NCBI RefSeq assembly: GCF_009914755.1
Contig: NC_060936.1
Origin: the human T2T-CHM13v2.0 reference genome, Homo sapiens
Length of the DNA stretch: 64,000 bases
Strand: one strand, 5' to 3'
Part shown: in pieces, positions 1,133 through 46,335 of the stretch
Layout: each line of letters starts with the position of its first letter
Numbering within the stretch: the stretch's first letter is position 1
Notes under the pieces: generated by a model
Database searches by the model: none
What the model was told of the DNA's origin: nothing
What the model saw: only the letters and a program-made list of their open reading frames with translations
Program-made: the position numbers and the translations under genes

Positions 1133-4100
1133 AAGATACAACCTGGGACAGTGGCAGCTAGTTTAACAAACCACCACACTCCGTAGCACCTCTCACCTGG
1201 GTGCAAGTGCCCCAGGCCACACTGCAGTAGCTGCACGCTGAGGGTGTCCCCAGATATATAAGAAGCCTCTCCAAGGGCCACAGAGGTTTTTTGATGGCAA
1301 ATGGTTTAAAACATCGTTTTTATATTAAGTTGTATAAAATATACTATGTTATAAAATGCAAAGTTTGCATCATTTTAGAGCTAAAACTTAAGGCCACAAA
1401 AGAATCTATTTTCTTATTAATAAAAAATCCTATTTTTATATAATGCAAATAACGAAGATGAAGTAACCTATTATTTAATTAAACATGTCTTTAAAAAAAA
1501 AAAAAAAAGAAATAATTGGTCCTTGCTAATGGCCCTTCAGGGCAAGCCCCCAGACTGCTGGGGTCCAAGTTTACCCTCCTGCCTCTAATATCAAAGGGAC
1601 TTTGGCAGAAAAGTTTGAGAAACCCTGTCAGGAACAGAGCCTACACAAGGACCACGAAATCTGACTTCTTCATTCTTTAAAAGAACAAAACAAATAGCAA
1701 CATTGTTTTTTCTACCTTCCTACTGTTTTACCTTCAAGTTTAGCATTAAGAACATGAAATGTTTTGTTTAAATTTATGATTCTTATTTCTGATTCCTTTC
1801 TGTTTAATAATTACTAGCTGAATCATTAATCATCAACCAAGTGAATGGTCACACTTTATAGAAGGCTACAAGGTGGAACACAAGATTTGTTGGATTCTTA
1901 AGAAAGAAACTAAAAGCTGCTTGCGACTTAGATGCTCCTAAGTTTTATGACTGTGGTGGGAATTTGAGCATCCAGGCCTTGCTTCTGATGGTCCTCTCGT
2001 TCCAGTGCCCCAGTTCTAATCCTCTGTGGGTGCCCTCGGTAGGCACAGCCTTGGGGCTGCCCAGGGCTCAAGGCATCCATGTTTTTAAAGTGCCCAACAA
2101 TGGCTTTTGATTCATCAGAAACTCCACAGGACACCCACCTAACTGGGGCTCTGATACCTAATTCAGCAGCACCCACCACCAAGTCTTTCTAAGTTTTATT
2201 TTCTTTTTAATATTACATGCAATATATGTTAATTATAAATAAACGTAATAATTCAGGTAGGTGAAAAGGAGAAGGAAAAAAGGCCCAAGTAGTTTCCCCA
2301 CTGAGGAAGAACCCTGGTTAGCGAGGCAAGTCACGTGATTTTGGGAATCGTGTTGAATCTACACCCATTTAAGGTGGAAGTCTATATAGCTTGATTCTTT
2401 GGTGGTTTAGAGCTCTGCTCCGTTTAGAGTTCAGGGAGGTGGTATCTACAGGGTGTATTGCTCTGATAAAAATTAGCAGCCTGCCCAAGTTCAAGGTATG
2501 AGGGGACTGATCACAGATTTATTTGAGAATCATTACGTTGGCCCTTTGGTGACTCTAGGGATGAGATCCAGAGTACAAGGGGCCCACACTTCCAAGGGAT
2601 CCCACCACACCTTCAAATAGCAGGCTCATGGAAAGAGGATTCCCAGATTCTCCCCCTCCAGCTACGGCATTGCTTTACAATATTTAACATTCCTTGACTA
2701 AAGAGCAAGTCTAACTTGCAAGTACTCCTAGGACAGGGACTGGCTTAGATCCATGACAGCTCCCTCTCTGAGAGAAGGGCGTGCCTTACTCCACCAGACC
2801 AAACAAAACTAAAGTGACCTCTCTGCTCCCCCCAGAGAGGGGCACTGGGGATGGTAAAAGCATTTCTGTCCCTGAACCCAGGGATGAAGTAGAGAAATGC
2901 CACTTAACCATAGTCAGGACCCAAAGAATTGTGAGACCAAGCTACCAAAGGCTCAAGTGAGGGGCTGGAAAGAGTGACAAAAACAGAGAAGGACAGAACT
3001 GTGAGCCACCGGACTTCATTTAGGAAGTCAGTGCTAGGGTAACAGGAAGGATTGGGCGGGCTTTCAGGGGAGTGGAACGTGTTAGAGAAAGAACAAAACT
3101 GAGTGGAGACGCAAGGCAGGAGATGGTTTATAGGTGAATTAGCAGCAGAGGGTGGGTGGTGGCTGTGCCTGGGGCAGGGGTGGTGGGGTGAGGAGGTGGG
3201 GGTGGCAGTGCCTTTGAGGGAGCTCTTGCAGAGGGCAGCCTTTTGAGGTGAAGAGCCAGAGCTCTGGGTCTTAAGAGTTGGAAAGCAGGTTATATTTCAC
3301 ATCCTTCCCTGAATAGAGAAATTGAATTTGGTCAAGAATAAGTCCTAAGAAGCAGTTGTGAGCACCCCACCTGTCCATCTTGTTGATGAATATGGAGTGG
3401 GAGAAAAGTTGAGTGTGGGCATCTGACAAGGTCTTTATGATCCTAGATGCACTTACTATACCTTCTTCCTCCTCCTCTGCCTTGGCTAATGGGTTGTGGG
3501 TACCCACCGCACAGAGGGCTATAAGACAGTCCTTGTGGCTGATGCAGAAGCTGGGCCCTGCCCTCCTGGCCTTCTGAGGAAAGTGATTATCGTTTTTGGC
3601 TTGTTTTTCAACTATCCCTTTGCCCCCAGCAGGACTGAACCTTTCCACTCTTACCATCTCTGGGTCCCTTCAGATCTTTTATAGCCTTGAACTACCTGCT
3701 ACAAGATTTTTTTCTGTCCTAAGAATGGAGGTCCGGTCTGCTTCCTAACATTAATCCCTTCCACACGGCACAGCCTTGTTTCCTCTAGATCAGAGAGATG
3801 GCTTCTGGATTCATCTTTCCCTGCAATCCAGCTTCTCCTCCTGGGGCCCTCATACTGGAGACTGGGATCATCATCCAGGCTTTTGCACTGGGCCAGGAAT
3901 TTGGGAGTCATCCTGGATCCGTCTGCCCCTGTCAACCTTTCTCTGTCAACGGATATTTATTGGGCGTCCTCAACAGCCAGGCCCTGTTCATGGTGCTGAA
4001 GAACAGCTTGTATAAAACAACCCTGCCCTCACAGGGCGATCACCAGTGACCTGTGGTGTGGAGTCTCCTTTTACCTATGTCTCCTCCTTCCCACTGTCAC

Positions 4101-25110: not shown

Positions 25111-27479
25111 ACCTCCCCACCCCTGCTCGAAGCCCCTCCTCTTCTAGGTGGGTTGTTTAGTTCCTATCACCAGTTCTTCACAAATCTGCTTTACCCCCGA
25201 CAGCCTACAACCCTTGTTCTCCAAAACTCCTGTTGACCTCCGTCCCTTTCCCTTCCCACTTTCTCCCTAGTCCCTCCGCTCCCCACAAAGTCCCCCAAAC
25301 CATTCTGTCCCTCTCCCTCTGCTCCCCACCCACCCTCCCCCACAACTCCTGCTGAAACAGATGAATTTCACCAAAAAAGACCATCAGACTTTCCCCAAGC
25401 AGGCCCCCACTGTGCCTGATCGCACACCCCCAGGGGAGGCACCACAGTGGCTAAGCTGGAGACCCAGAAATAAAATCCTCATTCTACTTCCCTGCCCCCT
25501 CTTCCCATCACTCATCTGGGAATCCAGGGCGAAGAAGGGAGCTAAAGTGCAGAGCATTCATTTAATATTAACAAATCGAAATGAATTCTTTTAATGCCAA
25601 TTAACTTCGAGCGGCCCCTTATTAATAGTAATTTAGATTCATACTTGGGAGAAACAGGGACGGGGGCTGGGCCAAATGTGCCCAGAATGTCAATGTGACT
25701 GGGGAACTGAAAGGGGAGGGGGGCAGTTTTACTTCTGCCCAGTTGGGTTCCGTTTCCCTGAGAGAAATGGATAGTCACTGGAGGCGGACCTTTGGGAAAC
25801 ACGAATTACTCTTGTAATTTTATTTTTGTTACTTCAAGGAATCTGAATAGTTTGAAGCCATGTCACACCATTTTAATAGTTTATTTTCACAGTAATGCTA
25901 AAAAGAAGAATTTCCTCAGAGCTGGGATTTACTTCAAACTCTCTCCTAAGCCAAACCTTACTGACAAAAGGGACAAGTCCCCAGGCCAGCTCTCTACCCT
26001 TCTTTGTTCAGAGCTAGAGCCAGAGATCAATATGGGCTTCCCCAATCCCTGCCCCTTCTACCTTAACCAAAACTAAAAGGAAGAATCAACACTGTGTGTC
26101 TCTCTGAGAAGTCTCCCCCAGGAGGTAAAAGACCCAAGGGGCTGACCCCTAAGCTGTTCAGCTTACATTTAAGGAAGAAAAACAATCTGCCTGCACTTTT
26201 CTTAGAATTTAGGGAAAAAATGAGAATTTAAAATTCAATTTCATGTATCAGAGTTCTCCAGAATACAGCCAAGTGTAAAGAACTTAGTCCCAAATGAAAA
26301 AGTTGAACAGAAATTCTGCTCTCACTCGTTTTGCCGGCTTGGAGGTCAGACTGGAGGTGTCCTGAACTAGAACCAGAGCATAGGTTCTGACCCAAGAAGG
26401 ACACTGTCTACTTCCCAGGCATCCCTCCTTGGCTGGGAGGAGAGGGGAGGATGAGTCCGTTGGAAGCTGAGAATTGTGGAAGCTGGAGATGGGAGTTCTG
26501 AGATGGAGGAGGCAGGCGCGTGAAGGAGGTCAGGGAAAGGCAAGTAAATCTACTAACCATTGAAGTTTATAAAATAAAAACCTTAAAAATGGTTTAACAT
26601 GCAAAAGGTTAAATTTTAAAAAGAGGCCAGGTTTTAAAGAAGGTAAAATACCTCAAATTTAAACAAATAAAAACGAGGAAAATACACAAAACATTTCAAG
26701 CAAATTGTTCTTCAGAAGAGGAGAGGTTGGAATTAATCAAAAGACCTTTTTTACACACACACACCCCCCAAGAGTTTCCCAAACAATAAATTCATTTACA
26801 AAACAAAAAGAGGAATCAACGCAAAACCTCATCCACACACAGAGGAAAATAAATTGTGGTGATTCTGTAACAGCTGAAAAACTAGTGAGGGAGGAGAAAA
26901 ATGAATAAACTCTAAATCTATTAGGTGATATTTATAAATAGCAAAATTGGAGGATGGAATGGAGAAAGGAGTTGAACTTATCATTAAAGAAGTAACACAT
27001 GTGAAAACATAAGGTGTAACTCATCCCCAAAGAAAAGTAAACTCTCCATAAAGTAGCAAGTATACAAATTTATTGAAAAGGAAGAAAGTACCACTCACCC
27101 CCCCCAATATAAGTGTATTAATTTGAATTAAAATTTTCTCCAAATCCAAGATAGGTTACACAAAAGAATACAAACATATTTTTTTTCTTTCAACTAAGAG
27201 GAAAAACAAAATCCGATTTAAATTCACGAATGGGACAGGAAGGGAGGCTGTGGTTTGCAGGTGCTAGTAAACGGGGTGAGGGTTGTGAAGAGTTTGAGGG
27301 GTAGAGGACCAGCTTACCTCGCTTTGGAGCCGCGGCGGCCAACAGGAGTGGGCCAAGGACCCTGCCAGTGCCTGAGTGATAGGGGAAATAAGGAATAGGG
27401 GATTCGGGTGCCCCTAGACGAATGAGGAGGATGGAAAGACTGGGGGTGCCCATCTCCCCTCCTCTGCCCGCCTCCCTCC

Positions 27480-27620
27480 CTCCGGTACCCAGGCCTAGAG
27501 AGCTACTGAAAGTTACAAATTGCTTCCATTATTAGCTCATCCCGGGCGGCCTGGTCATTGGCCAGCCCCTGGCCACGTGGTCCCTCGTACCAATCGATCG
27601 AATTCTAGTCGCAATTCTCT
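27480..27620. promoter_or_regulatory. CpG-island promoter, probably bidirectional: inverted CCAAT (27557), E-box CACGTG (27574), CCAAT (27590)
   Basis: Motifs read directly; flanked by divergent consensus splice donors (- strand 27317/27318, + strand 28170/28171). Confidence 0.7.
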
Positions 27621-27725
27621 GTCTGTCCCTCGGCTCTGGGGAGAAAGGGGGGGCTGTGGCGTGGGGGCTGAGGAGGGGCTAAGGCGGGAGGGGCGCCTCA
27701 TCCCTTCACCCTCCCTTTTCGCCAT

Positions 27726-28170
27726 GTGGGGGCCCTGAGCGCCGCCCCAGAAGAGGTCGAGGGAATGTTGTGGGCTGGGGCACACCAGCACGGCAGAAAC
27801 TGGAGAAAGCGAGAGACGTCGCCAGGGACCCAGGGACCTCTCCCTCCAGTTCCCCGGGCCCGCCCGGCCCTGATGGCCACTCACGCTATAGCGCCCACTC
27901 TGTCCTGGGCCATCCCGCGCCAGCAGTGTAGCCCCCAGCCCGGGCGCCTGAATGCTCTCCCTCCGGATCGCTGCTCGGGTCCCCACTTTGGCGACCGTGC
28001 CCCCGAGTCCTGCTTCCCCGGGGCCTGCTCTGTATCAGGCGCCTGCGCCTTCAAGGGTACCCGGCCCGCCTGCCCTCCCCAAGAGCCGAGTTTGCGCTCC
28101 TCCCGGAATCGTTTGAGAGAAGGACAAACTTTTGGCAGGATGGAAATCTAGATGAGCCTGTCCGGAGCAG
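27726..28170 (+). pseudogene. Exon 1 relic of a paralog-group-1 Hox gene (putative HOXC1), hexapeptide region
   Basis: CAA ACT TTT GGC AGG ATG GAA ATC TAG ATG AGC CTG TCC GGA GCA G|gt = QTFGRMEI*MSLSGA-G versus Hox1 QTFDWMKVKRNPPKT-G, same spacing and phase-1 intron; 5' boundary uncertain. Confidence 0.8.
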
Positions 28171-30333
28171 GTAAGCTGGGCCCGGGACGGGTGCGATTCA
28201 GCCCGAGAACAATCTGTCTCTCCCCGTCCCGGTCTCTCCCTCCCCTTACCCCTGTTTCCCCTGCAGGCTGACATATTAATCTGCCTTCCCCCGGGAGAAA
28301 TTTGGGCTGGGGTTGGGCTTCTGTCAGATGCATGGGGTCAGAGCAGCTTTCCTCCCCGAGTTTAGGGACTAAGGTGGTAGCTGGCAGGGGAGGGGGAGGG
28401 TTGCTTCCGAAACTGAGGATTGAGGGGAGGGTTAGGGGCCGAGAAACCCAGAGTCTGAGGGAGACGACTTCTTTCCTCAAACGCAACTTGGGGGAACTTC
28501 GGAAAAGTTTTTTGAGGGGAGATGGAGAAGGGAGCGGAGTTGGGGTTTCGAGGGCTAAAGTGGGAGAGAGGGTGCTCCGCTTCCCGTACTGAAGGAAGGA
28601 TGTGTGTGCTTATTCCCCAGTCGGGACCGATTACCAGCCTAGAAAAACCCAGCCGCGTCCCAAACCCGCTCACCCCAGCAGGCCCTTAGAGACGCTTGGA
28701 GATCCCCAGACACGCCCCGCGGAAAGGGAAGGAAATGCCAGCCCGAGTTGCCGACTCTGCCGGGACGGGGCGGGGGATCCGCCCAGAGCGGTCCCCTGCT
28801 GTCCTGGGCCCTTACGTTGATTCTAAGTTAGGAGTGATCTGAGAGAGGGAATAACTCCCAAAAATCTTTTTTTTTTTTTTTCTGAATCCAATTTGAGTCA
28901 GAGACCCATTTCCTTGAGATGGAGCCAAGCGAGTGCCCCCTCCCGCCTCCAGCACAATCTCCCGCTCTTCTCCAGTTCCCAAAGGAGGGCAAGGAAAAGG
29001 CCCCTACTCTCCTCCCAGGGCTGAGATTTCCTCCCCCACCCAAGAGATGCCCCAGGAGGAAGGAATGGAGAGGTTCTTCAAAGGGCAGTCAAGAGCAGAG
29101 GGTGGGTTCAGAGGTCACAGCTGAACTTGGGGCCCAGGACAAGGGGGAAGGGCGGGCCCAGGCCGGTGTAGAAGCTGCGGGGTGGCCTGGGGAAGTGGAC
29201 AAGGGCAGAGGCCGCTGCAGGTGTTGGGGGGTACCCTGGAGCCCGGGGTGTTCCTGGGCGGGGAGGTCCAGCCAAGCGGCAAGGGTCTGCGCTGTGCCTT
29301 TAGTTTTTAGGTTGGGCCCCTCCTGGGGAGCACCCAGCTGGAGGAGCCAGGCAAGTGGCAGAGGACACCTTCCGACTCCTTGGAAAGGGCCAGGAAGCGA
29401 TCTGGATCCTAGGAGAGAAAATTCCTACGTGGAACATGTGGTGTTCTGGCCCTTCCTGGGTAGACACCTGCAGAGGCCACTTGGCCCTGCCGGGTCAGAA
29501 GCCACAAATCTGCCCAGGCCTTTGTTTTCACTATTCCTGAAGTTTTTCTGCTGTGGCCCAGCACCTGCCCTGGCACCTGCTCGGCATCTGCTCATTGGCA
29601 AGCCCCGGACGGAGTTGGACTGGCCTAGCTGAGAGGTTTAGGAGGGCTTCCGCTGGCACTGCCAACAGGGAGTTTGGCTTGGTCCCCCAAAAAAAGGGCC
29701 TTTGAGAAGGACATGTCCAGGGGCAGACACGAAATCCACTGATACGCAAAACGAATGTAAACCCTTTTCTTTCCTCACATCTTGTGGCCCTTCACACCTC
29801 TGCAGTTCAGAGGATTTGGAATGGAAGGCCTCATCCATCCCCAGTCCCAAAGCAAACGTGGGAGCCAGCTTGGGCGTCTTCTTGCAGGCTGCTGGGGCTT
29901 TGTGTGCTCTGAGAGAAGATGTCTGGTCCTCTGCCTACCCCACTCCCCCTTTGATGAATGTGGTCCTTTTTGCTCCTGCCTCTCCAATACTACCCCTCGC
30001 CCCACCCCCCCACCCCCAACCCAGTCCCACAGATCTATGGGACTATCTCTCTTTTTCTCTTTCCTTGCTCCTCTTCCCCTTTCTTCTTAGGATTGATGGA
30101 CTGACAGCAGTTTGGCAAGGCTTCCCTAAGCCTGTAATAGGGAGCTGTGGACCCAGCCCTGACTTCTCAAGTAGGGGGAAACAGCTCTATTCCCGGGCCC
30201 TTGAGATTGAGTCTCAAGTTGACAGGAGTTGAGAAAGAAATGCATGAAGGATGGCTGGGCTTACGCAGGACAAAAACCTCTACTGGGGAGGGGCCAGTTT
30301 TGTGCCTTGTGCCTACTGCTGAGAGGGAATTTA

Positions 30334-30960
30334 GAAACAAAGGAAGATAAGAAGAAGGCCTAGGGAAACAGCATAAAGGACTGGAAAAATTCAGAACAGC
30401 AAAGAGAAAAAACTGGGAGAGAGGAAAAGATGTGAAAAGGCCCTAATGCTGGAGACAGAAAGGTATTCTGGAAGGGTGGCTGGGATAGAGATAACATGAA
30501 AGGAATATTGATAAAGAGCAGAAGGAAGAAGCAGGACTAGGTTTGTTTGGGTTTTTAAGATTAGAGATAGTCTGGGGCCTGTTAAAATAGAAAATAGAAG
30601 AAAAAAGATTAGAGATAAAGACAGAAAGGAAAAGAAAAGAAAAATAGGGAGAGAAACAGAAAGCAAATGAAAGGAGAGAGCTAGAGAGTAAAAGAAAAAG
30701 GAAGGGAAAGAAAGGGAGGTAAAAGTGAGAAAAAATAAATGGAAGGGAGACAGAAAGATAGGTAGAAAAGGAGGAAAGACAGGGACAAGGGAAAGAAGCA
30801 AGGACAGGGGAAGGAATGGAAGAAAAAGAGAAAGTGAAGGTAGGGCAGAAATGAAGCAAAAGAAGGAAGGAAAAATGAGAAATGAAGATACAGTGAGATA
30901 AAGAAGGAATAAGGGGAGTGAGGGGAAGGCGGGTAGAGAGAGAGAGAAAGAGAAACACGA
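30334..30960. repeat. GA-rich low-complexity polypurine tract
   Basis: About 0.6 kb of mostly A/G on the + strand (core about 30586-30958). Confidence 0.9.
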
Positions 30961-31121
30961 ACTCAACTAAGGTTAACGGTTAACAGAAAGGGGATCCCGG
31001 TTCCTGAGGAGCACAGGGAGGAAAGAGGAGATGGAGGGTGAGCAGAAAGGCCAGTTGGGGCCCCTCCCCGCCTCACCTTGGGCTGCGGAGGCCCTGACCG
31101 CCACCACTCCGCCGTCTCTAG

Positions 31122-31510
31122 GGCCCAGACCTGGGTGATGGCTGCCTGTGAACCGTGGGAGGTAGAGGCAGGGGCTGGCTGCCTGCATACGGGCTTCTCT
31201 TCTCGAAGCAGCTGAGCGAGCTGGAGTTCTTCCTGCAGCCCTACCTGCCCCCGACACAGCACGCCAAGCTGGACACATGGCGTTGAGGCTGTATGACATG
31301 CAGGTCCAGATCTGGTTCCAAAAGGCGTGCATGAAGTACAAGAGGCCAGTGAGGCAGGAATTGTTTGTGGATTCCCACCCTGGCGGCCCCTCTCCCGGGC
31401 TCAATCCTCTCACCCGCAGCCCCAAGTGCCTCCATTCCCACCCTACTGGCAGAGGCTGTCTGAAGACTGGGCAGCTTTGTTCCGGGCTCGGGGGTGCTCT
31501 GGTTCTGTGA
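31122..31510 (+). pseudogene. Exon 2 relic: frameshifted homeobox of a paralog-group-1 Hox gene (putative HOXC1)
   Basis: Branch-like CTGAC 31094 and acceptor AG 31120-31121; frames LHTGFS (31183-31200), SKQLSELEFFLQPYLPPTQHAKLD (31203-31274), [23 protein letters not shown] (31277-31345) align to [55 protein letters not shown]. Confidence 0.88.
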
Positions 31511-31529
31511 GCTTGGGCCTGTTTGATCA

Positions 31530-31872
<343 letters not shown>

Positions 31873-32887
31873 TGATCATTTGTTAAATGAGCCCTTTGCA
31901 CTGGAGGGTTTTTCTGTAGTTTTGGTTAGCCTGCCTGAGTATGTGCAAATGAGACAGGGATGAAGATAAGACCTAGTCCACTTTGCAAGGGTGGGAGGGG
32001 AGTGTGAGGGTGTAGGGGTTGGGAGGATGGGAGGCTGGGAGTGAGATCTTCATTTTCTTCCATTGGTGAGAAGAAAAATCTTCCTCCTTTGCTATCCTTA
32101 TCTCCAACCCTGCCCCAGAAAACCACCTTTCAGGTCAAGGAGTTTCTCCATGCCAGGAGGGGTTGGATTCATCTGCAAAGAGCTTGGGAGGAGGTTTGCA
32201 AATCCTGGAAAAGCCAGAGAAAGGATCTCATACATGAAAGGGAAGGAAGACATTCCCTACCCGGGCAAGTGGACCTTAGGTCTGCAGTAGAGTTCACTGA
32301 ATTCACACACACAAAGAGATTAATTGGTAAGGTGACTTTAGATTTAGCTATAGAGAGGATCAACTTGAGGTTGCTAGGTATCTTTAGCCTGTTGGGCCTG
32401 CACTCCCCATGCCCTGCTCATGTGCTCTGGTTGATTCACAAGGTTTCTTAGAGCCAATTCCTTTGTCTCCCAAAAGTGGGATGGGGCAGGTCACTGAGGT
32501 CAGCCAGTTCCTCCAAGGGCAGTGTATGCCTTGAGGATGGGCTGGGGCACCCCCAAACCACTGGCTAGAAAGGCATGTTCACAGTAAACCTTGCAGTGCT
32601 GTCTCAGGGAGGCCTCTGACCAGCACTGCCTAGCATTGCTCTTTAAGCTTTTCCTCCCCTCTTTTCTCTAGCTTCTCCCTTCCTTTATTTCTCTTTCTCT
32701 CTCTCTTCCTTCCAACCTTTCTGATTTCTCTGTCTCCCTTTTCATCCAGTCCAAGTTGGGGATCTTGTACTATCTTTGTACTCCAGATGGCTCTGCTCTG
32801 AGCCCTTTAGGCTGGTTAACATGTACCCTGCCCTCAAGAGTTCACTATTTGGATGCAAATAGCAGGATTAGAAGATGGGGAGGGAGC

Positions 32888-33250
<363 letters not shown>

Positions 33251-34378
33251 TTAATCATGATTATGACCTTCACATCCCCTTGGCTCACCCCTAGACAATT
33301 CTTCCCCACTCCCAGCCATCTGCAAACCACAGTCAGCCTGTCCCTGCTCCCAAAAATGGAATTGCTGATGCCCTCAAGGCTGTTACTCTCCCAGGGTGAG
33401 TGAGAGTGAGGTCAATGGCGCCAGGTCGGAGCCTCAAACTCTTAAATAAACAAAGCATATTTCCCTATTCCTGATGCAGTTGGGGGTCATCTATCCCTTG
33501 GAATGGAGAGGCTGGCAATTCTGGCTCTTGGCTATCTTTCCACAGAACACCCCTGATTAGCCAGGCCCACCGCCATCCACATCTGCTCGGCAAAGAAGGA
33601 AGGCAGCTTGTTCCAGACCTTGGTGAGCAGCTGCAGACTGCCTGCCTAGAACAGCCTCCTTACTCCAGCCTGGCAGGGAAGGAAGGAACCTGACTTGCTT
33701 CGCAGGATCTGGAAGCTCAGCCGGCAGAGCTGAGAGCCGCAGTTGCATCCTGGAGCCTGATGCTAGAAGCAGCTTCCGTCTTTGGGTTCTTGCTGCCTCG
33801 GCCTCTGCTCTGTTCAGTTTGCTGTTGTGTTTTTCTCCCCCATGTTGGGGTGGTGGGGTACAGGGAAATAAAATGCTTTCTCCCAGGCCCCTAATCCTTC
33901 CCCATGCCTCCATCAGCCTCAAAGCTGCTGACAGTCATGAACTGCACCTTCCAGCCCTGCCCATAAGCTACTCAAAGCAAATTCAAATTCTCTTCTGGCC
34001 AGGAGGAAGGGCAGATGCTCCCTCCTTCCTCAAGCCTCCCTGGCTCATTGATCCATTTTGAGGGCATTTGGGGGTCAAAGTTGAGACCAGATTGCTTCAG
34101 TTTGTATAAAATTAGCATTTCTTATCACACCAAGGCCACACCTGTTCTCTGGCCTCACAAACCAGTGAGGATGTAAAGGTTTGTTGAGGTGGAGGAACAG
34201 AAGTGAAATGAGCAATCTGCTCCATTTAGAAGTCAGTCGCTTCGGCTGTTCATTCCACTAATATTTATCTAGTACCTATTCTGTGCCAAGCATTGTCTCT
34301 ACCTCAGTTTGCCACAAATATGAAAAAAAAAAAATTCTTGGAACTGTGAGGCTTCAATGTGTTGTGGACCAATATACA

Positions 34379-34384
34379 AATAAA
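34379..34384 (+). terminator. Polyadenylation signal AATAAA of the lncRNA terminal exon (alternative AATAAA at 33867)
   Basis: AATAAA followed about 16 nt later by GT-rich sequence. Confidence 0.6.
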
Positions 34385-37300
34385 CCAATGGAAAAGAAAG
34401 TGTGGTTCGGAGTCAGCTGATTTTCATTGCAGCTTTCCATGTGCTGGGTCTAAGAGCCCCTGACTTCCGAGCTCCAGCTACCCAGCCCCAGCTGGTTGAC
34501 AAGCAGGACTTCCCTGGGGCCCATTTGTTTTTCCCACTGGAAAAATGTTAGAATGGGAGCAAGAAGCCTGTGCTGGGATCAACCGCCATGAAAGTCCCAA
34601 AACAAAGGGTTTGGGATGGGCGGCGGTGGGGCCCTCCCAAACATTGCTCCGTCAGAGGTGAGGGAGGGTAGGGGTGATGTGATACGTTTCTCCAGGTTGC
34701 AGAGCAGGTCTGTGAGTTTGCCTTGGTGTAATCACGTGCCTGAAGGTGATAACAAGGGTGTGCATGTGTGAGTGAGCTGAAGGGGGGCAGAGAAGTGTGC
34801 CTGTGCCAGGCTTGTGTACACCGGGCCCAGATGCCTGCACAGGTGCCAGTGTGTGTGTGTGGAGGGGGATAGAGGTGCCTGCAAATCTGAACATGTCTCT
34901 CCATATGTGACCCTCAGTGTATGTGAGAGTGTGTGTACCCGCTGAATTATGATAAAATTACACCGACCCTTACAGAAAATCCATAACAGCCTCGGCCTTT
35001 CTCCCCCGACCTCTCGACCTCTGGGGTGCCTGAGGAAAGGGTTGACCTGGTCACTGCCTCCTCCTAGTCAATGAGTCCCCCTCCATTAGCATAAAACATG
35101 AATCTGCTGGCAGCTTGACAAATTATAACTAGCAGCCAGAGTTTTGCCAACTGGCTGGCTTGGGTGCTGTCTATTTATCATTGAAAATGGTAAATCATAA
35201 GAATCCAGATGACTTAATTATTCAAATCCACCCAGGACCCAGAGAAGCTGCAGGCCCGTCAATCTCAGCCCTGGGCTCACAGAGAAGAGTGGGGGAAATG
35301 CTGTGAGCTTGTGAGCTGGAAGAAGCAGGTTCCATTGCCGCCTCTCCCCTACCCAGAGAGCAGGATTTTTCTCTGCAGCCCCTTCCCCTCCCTGCCGTTC
35401 TGCCCACCTTTCCAGCCAGAAGCCCGGCCAATTGTTTTGGTTGCTGGCCTCCCAAGGCTCTCCCTCGCACGCCTCCCGCTGCCCACCACCCGCTCCTCAA
35501 GCTCAGCCAGTGTTTCCCGGCCTCTCTTTGTGTGGATGTTAGCTCTTTCTCTCTGTTTCAGTGCCCTCATTTTTATTTCTTCTCTTTCTCCTATTCCTTT
35601 CACCATTTCTCTTCGTCTCTCCTCTGCCCACAGATAGACACTGAGCCCCGCACAGGGCCTCTCTGGTGGAGTTTTGCCTGCTCTCCTGGCCCCTTTGTCC
35701 TCACTGTCCCAGAGGTGCCAGCTCAGGATCCCCACGCATACGCACCCCAACCTTAACCCAGCGCTCCGAGTGCTAGAAGGCCTGAATTCGCGTCTCTCTG
35801 CTGTGGGGCCATATGGAAACACACATGTCAGTGGATAATACTGGGCCTGCCCCCACACCCCATACACACAACCTTTCTGTCCCTTTCTTCCGTGGATTTC
35901 TAACTACCATTATGCACAACTTGGGAGGTAGTGGCCAGGCTGTCAGAGATGTGCCCGGACCACTGAGGCAGGGCTTCGTCTCAAGAAGGCCCATCCCTCA
36001 CTCCCAGCATGGAACTACCTCAAGCCCCAGCAGAGGGATTGCTCAACATGAGCTTTCCCAGAAGGAGAAGAAACCCTGTTTACAGAACAAGTCCTAGATC
36101 CAGAGGTCTGCACACTGAGCTTCTGGGGGGCCCTTTGATGTTTGGGTCCTTTTATCTTTGTGTCCCTCACAGTCCAATATAAATATGTCCTACTTTTTCT
36201 TGCAGTCCTGGACCCCGTGAGAAATTTATGCCCTTCTAGACCCACAATGGCAGGTGGGAGGCACATATTCACCAATGCTGATATTGCTTTGACCCCAGAG
36301 GGGAATGTGAGGAGCAAGGAGGTTGCCAGAGCCCCTCTGCTTGAATGGCATCCCGGTCTATTCTTTTGGAGGGCTTGCTTTACCTGTAAGGGCCCTGGAG
36401 GCTCCTCAGAGCCACTTCTGTGTCTGCAGATGCTTGTCAACTTGGTTCTGGGATTCAGTTTGGCTTTGTCGGGGTGTGTGTGTGAGCACGTGCACACCTT
36501 TCGTGGATAACCTGGAGTCTTGACATACTGATGGGTCGTGCCTGGTGGCGTGCATGCCTGCACAAGTGCGCCAGTGCCCCTGATGTGTATGTGGGTGAGT
36601 GTGTATGTGTGCATGAACACACACTTCCAGAAAGAGCCCTTGTGCTGAAACAACGAGTGACAATGTCCCCACCAACAGGACACCTGAGGAAACAGCCCTC
36701 TCCATTCCATTTTAAGGCCTCTGAGCAATGTTGTTGTCAGTGAAATATTGGACTTGGCATATCATAAAACCTTAAAGAAGGAGCTACCTGTTTCTGCTAC
36801 TGAAAGTAAGTTCTTCCTAGAGTCTAGCCTTCTCTTCTTCTTTCAGGGCGGAATATGAGCATAGTCAGAAATCTCGAGAGGGGGCTCCCTACTCCTCCAA
36901 GAGAACATACGTGACATATAGGGAGCCCTTCCACAGCCAGGCTCATCCCCACAGCTTAAACACTTCATCCCCTCACTCTTCCCTTCTTCTCCACCTTTCC
37001 AAGCCAGGGTGATATTTGACAAGGGCAGTGGCGAGGGGTGAAACTTGGGGCGGGTGGCTGGGGGAAGGATAAAGATTCAAAAGCAGGCCAAGCTGCTGGA
37101 AGGCAGGAGATCAATAAGGGGAGACAGATTGGAGACAGGTTTCTCTCACTACTTCCCCACCCCTCGCTGGCTCAGCACCCCCGCCCCAGCTCCTGAAAGC
37201 AGGTGGAGGACAGAGCCAAGCACTGGCCTCTCCCTGCCCTTCTAACTCAAACAGGTTCCTAATCCCTGGGTAGAGGGTAAACAGCCTCTAAGCACGGCCA

Positions 37301-38584
37301 GGATTAACCACAGAAATGCCGCTAATGTATTTCGGGGCACTGCTCCCTGCCCCTACCCCCACCCTGTGTTACTAATTAGCCCAGCAGCAGGGAGAAGCTT
37401 GGGAGGAGCAGCTCAGAATGCCTTTGTGCAGGCTCTGAAAGCACAGGTCTGGGCTCTGGACAGTGTCTCTGGTGCTAGACAAGCTGGGGTGGCAGAGGAT
37501 TCCCGCCCCCTCCCCGCCACTCCTAAATCAGCTCAAAGGCAGACAGGTTTTTCTCTGTGCCCTTCCTGAATCCCCATCTCTCCTTTCCTGTTCACAGCTG
37601 GGAGGCAGGTGGGGGACAAGAGGGAGAGTGGAACCGGCTCTGGAAATCAAACGATGCAATAAAAAATTAATTGTCTAATTAAAACCATGAGGAAGCCCCT
37701 TGCCAGAGTTTGGCTCTGAGTCGTCAGGGCTATAAAGGGTGGGAAAATGAGTCTCAGCTCCTAATAAATTCCTGATTTGCAGCTTGGTCTATCAGCAAAG
37801 GAGCACTGAGCGTTCCACTGGCTAGGCCTCCTGGAGGTCATTCCACCCTCTCTCTGCCCCAACCCAGCCATCACACCCAAAATCCTACACAAGCCCACAG
37901 TCAGGGTTTCCCCAAAAGGAGAGAAAGCGGGGACCCTCAGTCTCCCTGATCTGATGCTTACCCATTTCTTCCTGGTCTTTCCTCGGGAAAGGAAAGTTCT
38001 GGAAACTTCCTCAACCAAAGAGTTCTTCATTTAGGTTAACTAATAACTGTATGAACAAGTTTGCTATGTAGGTTCATTTTGACCTCACCTCTTCCACTTT
38101 TGTGAAAAGTATAATTTATGAACTGATTTATGATTCCCTCTCTTAGATCTTAGTGCTGATTTTTGCAGGTGAATGACAGAGAACCAAGCTAAGAAATTAA
38201 TCTCCCCTCTAAAAGAGGGCTGTGCACCCTGCCCAGTTGACCAAATCCTCTGGAAGAATGAACACAGAGCTAGTCCAGAAAGGAGTGCAGAGTTAGGCAA
38301 CTCTCATGGGCAGATGGATGCCCAAACCTTCTCCCTGAATCACTGAACCATTTCTTCACTTGGGTCTGCCTGTGTAGACACAGGCTCCATGCCTCTATTC
38401 CCTCCCTTTCTTGGCAAAAACAAATGCATTATACATCATCAGAGGTATTAATTCATAATAACAGCGGGAGGAGGTAGTTAGCATACTGCCTTCAACATCA
38501 TATTACATTATTTTATTATACAGAATGCAATATGAACTCTATATCTGTGATTGGCTTCTTTAAACAAACATGGCAGAACAAACA

Positions 38585-45988: not shown

Positions 45989-46335
<347 letters not shown>

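What the first reader, a model, noticed from the sequence alone, without database searches (positions are those of the whole stretch)
27550..31510. Fossil of a lost paralog-group-1 Hox gene (putative unitary pseudogene of HOXC1) with two-exon architecture intact
Seen: on the + strand, in order, a CpG promoter, an exon ending in a decayed Hox1 hexapeptide with a phase-1 GT donor (28170/28171), a 2951-bp intron, an AG acceptor (31120-31121) and a decayed homeobox. Established: mammals have HOXA1, HOXB1 and HOXD1 but no HOXC1-3, while HoxC1 survives in some non-mammalian vertebrates (e.g. coelacanth, zebrafish hoxc1a). Inference: the intron is retained, so this is a gene that died in place rather than a retrocopy. 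If the window lies 3' of HOXC4 as recalled, position and strand are those expected for HOXC1. I cannot tell whether this has already been reported.
Basis: partly seen in the sequence, partly recalled or inferred. Interest (0 to 1): 0.95.

Follow-up and report, generated by a model that had tools for sequence, protein, structure and literature searches.

The report
Decayed HOXC1 gene relic in humans
Downstream of the human HOXC cluster lies the broken remnant of a group-1 Hox gene, most likely the "lost" HOXC1, and the end of its first exon with the old splice site now serves as the first exon of the non-coding RNA LINC02381.

Summary
At window 31183-31369 (+) there is a decayed homeobox. All 13 human paralog-group (PG) nucleotide profiles hit it best (PG1 E=7e-9, PG3 E=6e-10; 0 of 500 shuffles above 4.4 bits). 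About 3 kb upstream on the same strand, 28128-28170 is a decayed Hox1 hexapeptide. It ends in a phase-1 GT donor exactly 28 nt after the hexapeptide ATG, as in HOXA1, HOXB1 and HOXD1 and in no other group examined. This donor ranks 1st of 6186 GT sites in the window.

The homeobox alone favours group 1: top 3 of 38 at codon positions 1+2, and inside the PG1 clade in all trees. It does not exclude group 3 (AU p 0.09-0.24). Exon 1 settles it.

The relic lies about 75 kb 3' of the HOXC4 homeobox, on the HOXC strand and before SMUG1, so HOXC1 is the best reading (~0.87). It has a stop codon, two +2 frameshifts, a 6-nt deletion and lost DNA-contact residues.

The ancestral donor is the annotated end of LINC02381 exon 1, under a maintained CpG island. 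The acceptor is only plausible, and the rest of exon 1 shows no homology. No named HoxC1 protein or other mammal could be compared. No report was found in the searchable literature.

The parts
27500..28200 (.). CpG island over the relic's first exon. It holds the annotated start sites of LINC02381 (27629, +) and FAM242C (27953, -).
   Evidence: GC 0.645 and CpG obs/exp 0.65, against 0.16-0.20 in flanking DNA. Start sites come from the hub's RefSeq table.
27629..28170 (+). Annotated LINC02381 exon 1. Only its last ~45 nt are recognisably the 3' end of a Hox1 first exon.
   Evidence: Hub annotation gives the exon. Homology is limited to 28128-28170.
28128..28148 (+). Decayed Hox1 hexapeptide (T F G R M E I, against TFDWMKV in HOXA1).
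   Evidence: Gapless in-frame alignment.
28149..28151 (+). In-frame TAG stop at the codon that is Lys in HOXA1, HOXB1 and HOXD1.
28171..28172 (+). GT splice donor, phase 1, 28 nt after the hexapeptide ATG. It is the annotated LINC02381 exon 1 donor.
   Evidence: The distance is 28 nt in 3 of 3 human PG1 genes, 49 in HOXB3, 22 in PG4-6 and 10 in PG7-8. It ranks 1st of 6186 GT sites.
28171..31121 (+). Putative relic intron, 2951 nt. Human PG1 introns are 354-465 nt.
   Evidence: RefSeq enhancer marks at 28003-29273 come from the hub table.
31120..31121 (+). Putative AG acceptor after a pyrimidine tract.
   Evidence: Spacing to the homeodomain is 20-23 nt too long, and no transcript supports it.
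31122..31182 (+). Decayed linker between the acceptor and the homeodomain. Its register is uncertain.
   Evidence: Frameshift-aware alignment gives only weak matches here.
31183..31351 (+). Homeobox relic, homeodomain codons 4-60.
   Evidence: nhmmer, codon map, trees.
31204..31205 (+). First +2 nt frameshift, between homeodomain codons 10 and 11.
   Evidence: Codon map.
31226..31227 (+). Site of a 6-nt in-frame deletion that removes two helix-1 codons (18-19).
31281..31282 (+). Second +2 nt frameshift, after codon 37. In the unshifted frame a TGA follows at 31284-31286.
31322..31330 (+). Helix-3 DNA-contact residues are lost: N51>K, R52>A, R53>C.
31352..31369 (+). C-terminal flank R Q E L F V, against REGLL in HOXD1 and KEGLL in HOXA1.

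Best explanation
This is a unitary pseudogene: the in-place relic of HOXC1, the group-1 member of the HOXC cluster. HoxC1 is still functional in lobe-finned fishes, caecilians and some lizards.

The gene lost constraint in the lineage leading to mammals. This is inferred from two things: lizards still have the gene, and the decay is about 0.5 substitutions per site at positions invariant among the three human paralogs. It then accumulated a stop codon just after the hexapeptide, a Trp>Arg change in the hexapeptide, two +2 frameshifts, a 6-nt deletion in the homeobox, and loss of N51, R52 and R53. It cannot encode a homeodomain protein.

Its 5' part did not fall silent. The CpG island persists, and the ancestral phase-1 donor is the donor of LINC02381 exon 1. 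That exon is spliced to a different exon at 33546 and skips the dead homeobox. What is shown: the homology, the lesions, the position, and the coincidence of the donor with the annotated exon end. What is inferred: the 'C1' orthology (from position, not from comparison with real HoxC1), the date, and that the promoter and donor are kept by selection for the lncRNA or for enhancer function.
For: Homeobox:
- All 13 PG profiles have their best window hit at 31.2 kb. PG1 gives E=7e-9 and 30.6 bits over profile positions 26-182 of 198.
- 0 of 500 shuffles scored above 4.4 bits.
- It is the only hit below E=0.001 in the 107 kb from just 3' of HOXC4 to the window end; the only other hit below E=0.05 is an Alu tail, E about 0.01.

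Exon 1:
- 30 of 46 bases match HOXA1, anchored at the donor. This is rank 1 of 6186 GT sites.
- Against 16 human HOX exon-1 ends, the three PG1 genes rank 1-3 (30, 25, 22); the other 13 score 9-18.
- The distance from the hexapeptide ATG to the donor is 28 nt, as in 3 of 3 PG1 genes and in none of the 13 others measured.

PG1 residues: T6, F8, K11, S14 (one change from T), Y41 (one change from N), M43 (one change from T), V45, and the flank RQELF against REGLL.

Codon positions 1+2: A1 72, D1 71 and B1 70 of 110 are the top 3 of 38.

IQ-TREE: the PG1+relic split has UFBoot 100 (positions 1+2), 100 (all nt) and 96 (aa). The relic is sister to HOXD1 at 84 and 93. Without the arm codons that were mapped using PG1, support is 80 and 79.

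Other points:
- The homeobox is single copy in the genome.
- The HOXC4 homeobox is at C12:54020444-54020614 (+), and the relic at C12:54095183-54095351 (+).
- HoxC1 is present in lizards, so the amniote ancestor had it (PMC9498476 passages; chameleon preprint passage).
Against: - The PG3 profile scores 3.6 bits higher than PG1 on all nucleotide positions (34.2 against 30.6). This is probably because GC-rich third positions match HOXA3/B3/B2.
- AU tests on the homeobox alone do not reject placement with PG2, 3, 4, 8 or 12 (p 0.24-0.43 without the arm codons; PG3 p=0.09 with them).
- Y56, P24 (one change from Arg) and L34 (one change from Met) fit PG3 better.
- All 298 single-homeodomain proteins compared (nearly all PG1) have Q at position 56.
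- Pfam and PDB sequence searches are not significant on their own (16.5 bits against a 22.9 cut-off; best PDB E=0.16).
- There is no detectable homology in the 5' four-fifths of exon 1.
- Acceptor spacing is off by 20-23 nt.
- No bona fide HoxC1 sequence and no other mammal could be compared.
Confidence: 0.87

Rival explanations
1. It is a relic of HOXC3 (group 3), which mammals also lack, rather than of HOXC1.
For: The PG3 nucleotide profile gives the best score (34.2 bits, E=6e-10). Y56, P24 and L34 are nearer to PG3 codons. The AU test does not reject it (p 0.09-0.24).
Against: The exon-1 end matches PG1 at 30, 25 and 22 of 46 bases, against 17 for HOXB3. The donor lies 28 nt after the hexapeptide ATG, against 49 nt in HOXB3. 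At codon positions 1+2 the three PG3 genes score 63-64 of 110, against 70-72 for PG1. All five trees put the relic in PG1. The arm T6/F8, K11, the codon 41-43 pattern and the C-terminal flank are all PG1-like.
Confidence: 0.06
2. It is a DNA-level duplicate of another group-1 gene (for example HOXD1) that landed here and decayed. It would then not be the cluster's own HOXC1.
For: The relic is sister to HOXD1 in 4 of 5 trees (UFBoot 82-93). No true HoxC1 was available to break that grouping.
Against: The position, the strand and the order (HOXC4, relic, SMUG1) are those expected for HOXC1. The decay (K about 0.5) is too deep for a recent copy. The homeobox is single copy, with no paralogous flank detected. 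A sister relation to D1 is also what a C/D cluster sisterhood would give (that history is recalled, not tested).
Confidence: 0.04
3. It is a chance resemblance in GC-rich DNA, and no gene ever stood here.
For: The protein-level searches are weak.
Against: nhmmer E is 1e-8 or lower in 107 kb. 0 of 500 shuffles scored above 4.4 bits. There is an independent top-ranked exon-1 match 3 kb upstream on the same strand, with the right phase and spacing.
Confidence: 0.01

Closest known systems
Human HOXA1, HOXB1 and HOXD1 (functional group-1 paralogs)
   Same: Two-exon layout. The hexapeptide is followed after 28 nt by a phase-1 donor. The homeodomain has the PG1 arm and a C-terminal (K/R)EGLL-like flank. 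Each lies at the 3' end of a Hox cluster on the cluster strand.
   Different: The relic is dead: one stop, two frameshifts, one deletion, and N51/R52/R53 lost. Its intron is 2951 nt against 354-465 nt. Only about 58% of bases are identical across the homeobox. The 5' part of exon 1 is not alignable.
Functional HoxC1 of coelacanth, lungfish, caecilians and some lizards (PMC3038165, PMC4470032, PMC9498476, chameleon preprint; passages read)
   Same: It is the expected orthologue by position. Lizard HoxC1 also has an unusually long intron, about 9 kb in Darevskia.
   Different: Those genes are intact and expressed. Their sequences could not be fetched here, so the similarity is untested.
HoxC1a pseudogenes of medaka and pufferfishes (PMC2246111, whole text read)
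   Same: They are in-place relics downstream of HoxC3a with a degenerate, frameshifted homeodomain, found by protein-to-genome alignment.
   Different: They are independent losses in teleosts and much younger. No link to a lncRNA was reported.
psi-HoxD12 remnant of the caecilian Hox cluster (PMC4470032, passages read)
   Same: It is a unitary Hox relic recognised by alignment at its syntenic place.
   Different: It belongs to another paralog group and another lineage.
lncRNA genes built on the remains of protein-coding genes (for example XIST from Lnx3; recalled, not checked here)
   Same: A dead coding gene's promoter and exon with its splice site are reused by a non-coding transcript.
   Different: Here only the first exon and its donor are reused. 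No function has been tied to the relic part.

Membership tests
Hox paralog group 1 (labial/Hox1) | Antp-class homeobox | tested here: met
   nhmmer gives E=7e-9 (PG1 profile), with all 13 PG profiles hitting the same site. 0 of 500 shuffles scored above 4.4 bits. Pfam alone is below its cut-off (16.5 against 22.9 bits).
Hox paralog group 1 (labial/Hox1) | PG1-diagnostic homeodomain residues (arm R-T-N-F, K/R11, T14, N41, T43, V45, Q56) | tested here: inconclusive
   T6, F8, K11 and V45 are kept. S14, Y41 and M43 are each one base from the PG1 codon. Q56 is not met (it is Y, as in PG3), and P24 and L34 are nearer to PG3. The trees favour PG1 (UFBoot 79-100), but AU tests do not reject the other groups.
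Hox paralog group 1 (labial/Hox1) | Hexapeptide of the TF(D/E)WMKVKRN type at the end of exon 1 | tested here: met
   There is a gapless in-frame match in decayed form: 30 of 46 nt to HOXA1, rank 1 of 6186 GT-anchored sites. PG1 genes rank 1-3 of the 16 HOX genes compared.
Hox paralog group 1 (labial/Hox1) | Phase-1 intron 28 nt after the hexapeptide ATG | tested here: met
   The distance is 28 nt in the relic and in 3 of 3 human PG1 genes. In the 13 other genes measured it is 49, 22 or 10 nt.
Hox paralog group 1 (labial/Hox1) | Linker of about 16-17 codons between the acceptor and homeodomain residue F8 | tested here: inconclusive
   The relic has 73 nt against 50-53 nt in human PG1 genes. 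The acceptor is not supported by any annotated transcript.
HOXC1 orthologue | Location 3' of HOXC4 on the cluster strand, before SMUG1 and CBX5 | tested here: met
   The HOXC4 homeobox is at C12:54020444 (+) and the relic at C12:54095183 (+). SMUG1 and CBX5 positions come from the hub table.
HOXC1 orthologue | Closer to non-mammalian HoxC1 than to HoxA1/B1/D1 | not tested
   No protein named Hox-C1 appeared among the 3 x 120 listed hits, nor could any of the 150 representatives be identified as HoxC1.
Unitary pseudogene | Disabling lesions, a retained intron, no functional copy at the locus, and a functional orthologue elsewhere | tested here: met
   The lesions are mapped. The intron is retained. 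Functional HoxC1 in lizards and caecilians is known from paper passages. Presence of the relic in other mammals was not testable with these tools.
Pseudogene-derived lncRNA exon | An annotated lncRNA exon boundary coincides with the ancestral coding-exon boundary | tested here: met
   LINC02381 exon 1 ends at 28170 (hub table). This is the PG1-type donor position.

The most novel reading that the evidence does not exclude
HOXC1 did not simply die. Its CpG-island promoter, first exon and splice donor have been held under selection since the mammalian stem as the 5' module of a lncRNA (LINC02381) or enhancer unit. On this reading the unit still obeys 3'-end Hox-cluster regulation and acts on the HOXC genes, so a 'fortieth' human HOX locus survives as a regulatory RNA gene.
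Probability: 0.25. Interest if true: 0.75.

Novelty: new member of a known kind. Interest (0 to 1): 0.6.

Why it matters
Papers and gene censuses state that mammals have 39 HOX genes and that HOXC1 was 'lost'. [quoted passage not shown]

A recognisable in-place relic matters in three ways:
- It shows the loss was by decay, not deletion.
- It gives lesions (one stop, two frameshifts, one deletion) that can be compared across monotremes, marsupials and placentals to date the loss.
- It marks the ancestral 3' limit of the HOXC cluster.

It also gives an evolutionary origin for the first exon of LINC02381. This lncRNA appears in 200 papers of the held library, those listed being mostly cancer studies, and the one functional paper I searched for the word holds no mention of 'pseudogene'. 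This makes it testable whether the lncRNA's regulation is inherited from a Hox1 gene.

Tried and rejected
- Pfam on five ORF pieces: only helix 3 matched, below the cut-off.
- PDB sequence search: 36 homeodomain chains, best E=0.16, HOXB1 E=1.1. The first half of the homeobox gave 0 hits.
- My first frameshift-aware protein alignment with linear gap costs did not separate paralog groups (HOXD8 95, HOXD1 93, HOXB8 93). I dropped it as a classifier and kept it only for register.
- hmmsearch of a full-length PG1 profile over 2949 ORF pieces: only the helix-3 ORF was significant (E=4e-4).
- Search for homology in the 5' part of exon 1: 11 PG1 proteins against 8 shuffles each, no signal. A 'GHSRYSAHS' match to HOXB1 residues 18-26 is therefore treated as chance.
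- Attempts to obtain true HoxC1: three protein searches, one representative search, a tree of 86 PG1 proteins and two Atlas look-ups. A ray-finned-fish clade named 'Hox-D1-like' or 'Hox-A1-like' could be C1 or D1. The eel paper shows that eels have a HoxD1a, so I did not use that clade as HoxC1.
- Ranking 298 single-homeodomain proteins by identity to the relic: a flat range of 21-26 of 55 (one at 18), not informative.
- Scan for a second relic (HOXC3) over 107 kb: none found. The hit at 46206-46272 is an Alu tail, and 2865-2905 is not significant.
- Retinoic-acid response motifs DR5 and DR2: 0 matches, with 0.3-0.4 expected by chance.
- Rfam over 26000-36000: 0 families.
- Feiner & Wood 2019 (Evol Dev), the paper on lizard HoxC1, is not held. 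It may bear on priority.
Full report
**What is there**

The window is T2T chr12:54064001-54128000 (the hub's table; confirmed as G000:C12). I read 27400-28400 and 31000-31700 and listed all stop-to-stop frames.

Two pieces on the + strand look like a Hox gene.
- 28128-28170 reads, in one frame and without gaps, against the end of HOXA1 exon 1. The residues are T F D>G W>R M K>E V>I K>stop R>M N>S P>L P>S K>G T>A, then the first base of a split Gly codon, followed by GT at 28171.
- 31183-31369 reads as a homeodomain from residue 4 to six residues past its end, once three lesions are allowed for. These are two 2-nt insertions (31204-05 and 31281-82) and a 6-nt deletion (after 31226).

**Is it more than chance?**

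I located 38 of the 39 human HOX homeoboxes in the window's own genome; HOXB13 fell outside the 150 matches scored. From them I built one nucleotide profile per paralog group (PG).
- All 13 profiles have their best hit in the window at 31.2 kb. PG3 gives 34.2 bits (E=6e-10), PG1 30.6 bits (E=7e-9) over most of the box, and the others 7.7-24 bits.
- None of 500 dinucleotide shuffles of 31100-31420 scored above 4.4 bits.
- In the 107 kb from just 3' of HOXC4 to the end of the window, this is the only homeobox-like hit below E=0.001. The only other hit below E=0.05 is an Alu tail at 46206-46272, E about 0.01.
- For exon 1, I compared the 46 nt before each of the 6186 GT dinucleotides on both strands with the exon-1 ends of HOXA1, HOXB1 and HOXD1. 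The site at 28170|28171 is first with 30 of 46 identical; the next has 25.
- The best exon-1 match thus lies 3 kb upstream of the only homeobox match, on the same strand, in the right order and in the right phase. Chance is excluded.
- Protein-level searches are weak on their own. Pfam Homeodomain gives E=0.0075, 16.5 bits against a cut-off of 22.9, on 1 of 5 ORF pieces. The best PDB hit has E=0.16. A full-length PG1 HMM gives E=4e-4 on 1 of 2949 ORF pieces.

**Which Hox gene?**

The homeobox alone is ambiguous.
- Over all bases the relic is about 58-61% identical to HOXB2, A3, B3, B1, A1 and D3 (93-100 of 165).
- At codon positions 1+2 the three PG1 genes are the top 3 of 38: A1 72, D1 71, B1 70 of 110. 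HOXB2 follows at 67 and A3/B3 at 64. So the PG3 edge in nhmmer comes from GC-rich third positions.
- IQ-TREE puts the relic inside the PG1 clade with UFBoot 100 (positions 1+2), 100 (all bases) and 96 (protein). It is sister to HOXD1 at 84 and 93.
- My mapping of arm codons 4-10 had been guided by PG1, so I repeated the analysis without them. PG1+relic then has support 80 and 79, and D1+relic 82 and 83.
- AU tests do not reject placement with PG2, 3, 4, 8 or 12. Without the arm, p is 0.24-0.43. With the arm, PG3 has p=0.09.
- Residues that fit PG3 better are Y56, P24 and L34. All 298 single-homeodomain proteins compared (nearly all PG1) have Q56.

Exon 1 decides the question.
- The distance from the hexapeptide ATG to the phase-1 donor is 28 nt in the relic and in HOXA1, B1 and D1. 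It is 49 nt in HOXB3, 22 nt in eight PG4-6 genes and 10 nt in three PG7-8 genes.
- For HOXA2 and HOXB2 no donor follows closely. For HOXA3, HOXD3 and HOXB7 the hexapeptide was not within the loci I held.
- Anchored at the donor, the relic matches A1, B1 and D1 at 30, 25 and 22 of 46 bases. It matches the other 13 genes at 9-18.
- The arm (T6, F8), K11 and the flank after the homeodomain (RQELF against REGLL) are also PG1-like.

I therefore read the relic as group 1, with group 3 at about 6%.

**Why HOXC1?**

- The intron is retained (2951 nt, GT...AG), so this is not a retrocopy.
- The homeobox is single copy in the genome.
- It lies at C12:54095183-54095351 (+), about 75 kb past the HOXC4 homeobox at C12:54020444-54020614 (+). 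It lies before SMUG1 and CBX5 (hub table).
- This is the place and strand expected for the group-1 member of the HOXC cluster.
- I could not test orthology directly. No protein named Hox-C1 appeared in three searches of 120 rows each, and none of the 150 representatives could be identified as HoxC1. A ray-finned-fish clade with automatic names could be C1 or D1. No other vertebrate genome is held.

**State of the gene**

The relic is dead. The lesions are:
- a TAG at 28149-28151 directly after the hexapeptide;
- Trp>Arg within the hexapeptide;
- two +2 frameshifts;
- loss of two helix-1 codons;
- N51>K, R52>A and R53>C.

At 119 sites where HOXA1, B1 and D1 are identical, the relic differs at 43. 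This gives K of about 0.5. With neutral rates of 1-2.2e-9 per site per year (recalled values), that is roughly 225-495 million years. This is a crude figure, and it overestimates if HOXC1 had substitutions of its own.

The figure agrees with the literature. HoxC1 is present in lobe-finned fishes and caecilians (PMC3038165 and PMC4470032, passages) and in some lizards (PMC9498476 passages; chameleon preprint passage). So the amniote ancestor had the gene, and the loss on the mammalian side came later.

**What still works**

- The region 27500-28200 is a CpG island (GC 0.645, obs/exp 0.65, against 0.16-0.20 around it). It holds the annotated start sites of LINC02381 (+) and FAM242C (-).
- The annotated end of LINC02381 exon 1, 28170, is exactly the ancestral Hox1 donor. 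The transcript then joins an exon at 33546 and skips the homeobox (hub table).
- So the 3' end of the old first exon and its splice site live on in a lncRNA.
- That the island and the donor are kept by selection is an inference. The maintained CpG content supports it.

**Limits**

- Upstream of about 28120 I found no similarity to PG1 proteins beyond shuffles. The old start codon and promoter therefore cannot be placed by homology.
- The AG at 31120-31121 is a good-looking acceptor, but it sits 73 nt before the F8 codon against 50-53 nt in the human paralogs, and no transcript uses it.

**Is it in print?**

- Whole-word 'HOXC1' with 'pseudogene' gave 3 papers, and with 'remnant' gave 1. None reports a mammalian relic.
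- Whole-word 'HoxC1' alone gave 31 papers, 29 listed. I read passages of six of them; none reports a mammalian relic. The other listed titles and abstract starts do not suggest one.
- Six phrase variants for such a pseudogene gave 0 papers.
- 'HoxC3' with 'pseudogene' and 'mammals' gave 2, both on snake genomes (listing only).
- The human homeobox census lists only HOXA1, B1 and D1 under Hox1 (passages).
- The HAVANA annotation paper has no 'unitary' term.
- The LINC02381/HMS paper has no 'pseudogene' term.
- HoxC1a pseudogene relics are known in medaka and pufferfishes (PMC2246111, whole text), so the kind of object is known.
- Subscription papers, notably Feiner & Wood 2019, and the GENCODE tracks were out of reach.

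**Verdict**

It is a new member of a known kind. Interest is moderate to high for Hox evolution and for the origin of LINC02381.

Noticed in passing
window 26300-27673: This stretch has six copies at 97% identity on C9 (four) and C20 (two). This fits the FAM242 family of duplicated loci. The copies end at about 27673, roughly 45 nt inside LINC02381 exon 1, so the upstream half of the CpG-island promoter is part of a recent segmental duplication. The recognisable Hox parts are single copy.
   Followed up: partly
window 46206-46272 (+): The PG4-7 homeobox profiles hit here at E about 0.006-0.04. Reading the sequence shows the 3' end of an Alu with its A-tail, so this is an artefact of the profiles.
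   Followed up: yes
window 2865-2905 (+): Five PG profiles give a weak match to the helix-3 part of the homeobox (E 0.18-0.67 in the 107-kb scan). It lies between HOXC4 and the relic, where a HOXC3 remnant would be expected. It is not significant, and no flanking homeobox signal was seen.
   Followed up: partly
window 27765-28151 (+): An ATG-started open frame of 128 codons runs in the same frame as the hexapeptide relic and ends at the TAG. A frame just as long (159 codons stop to stop) exists on the opposite strand, so this is no sign of coding. The 'micropeptides' of LINC02381 in PMC9373536 are computer predictions only.
   Followed up: partly
window 30200-31000: A purine-rich stretch inside the relic intron has strong skews (GC skew up to 0.71, AT skew up to 0.73). 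Tandem Repeats Finder reports no array there at default settings. It finds only a T/G-rich microsatellite at 31530-31591, next to a masked repeat.
   Followed up: no
proteins P0177, P0256-P0278: A clade of group-1 proteins from ray-finned fishes (sturgeon, bichir, gar, bowfin, eel, salmon, pike, herring) carries automatic names 'Hox-D1-like', 'Hox-A1-like' or 'Hox-A1'. No protein in any list was named Hox-C1. Automatic naming against a human gene set that lacks HOXC1 may hide true HoxC1 genes.
   Followed up: partly
window 38273-38428 (-): An 8-residue match (TQVKKWF region) to the PG1 helix 3 on the opposite strand, E=11. It is treated as chance.
   Followed up: no
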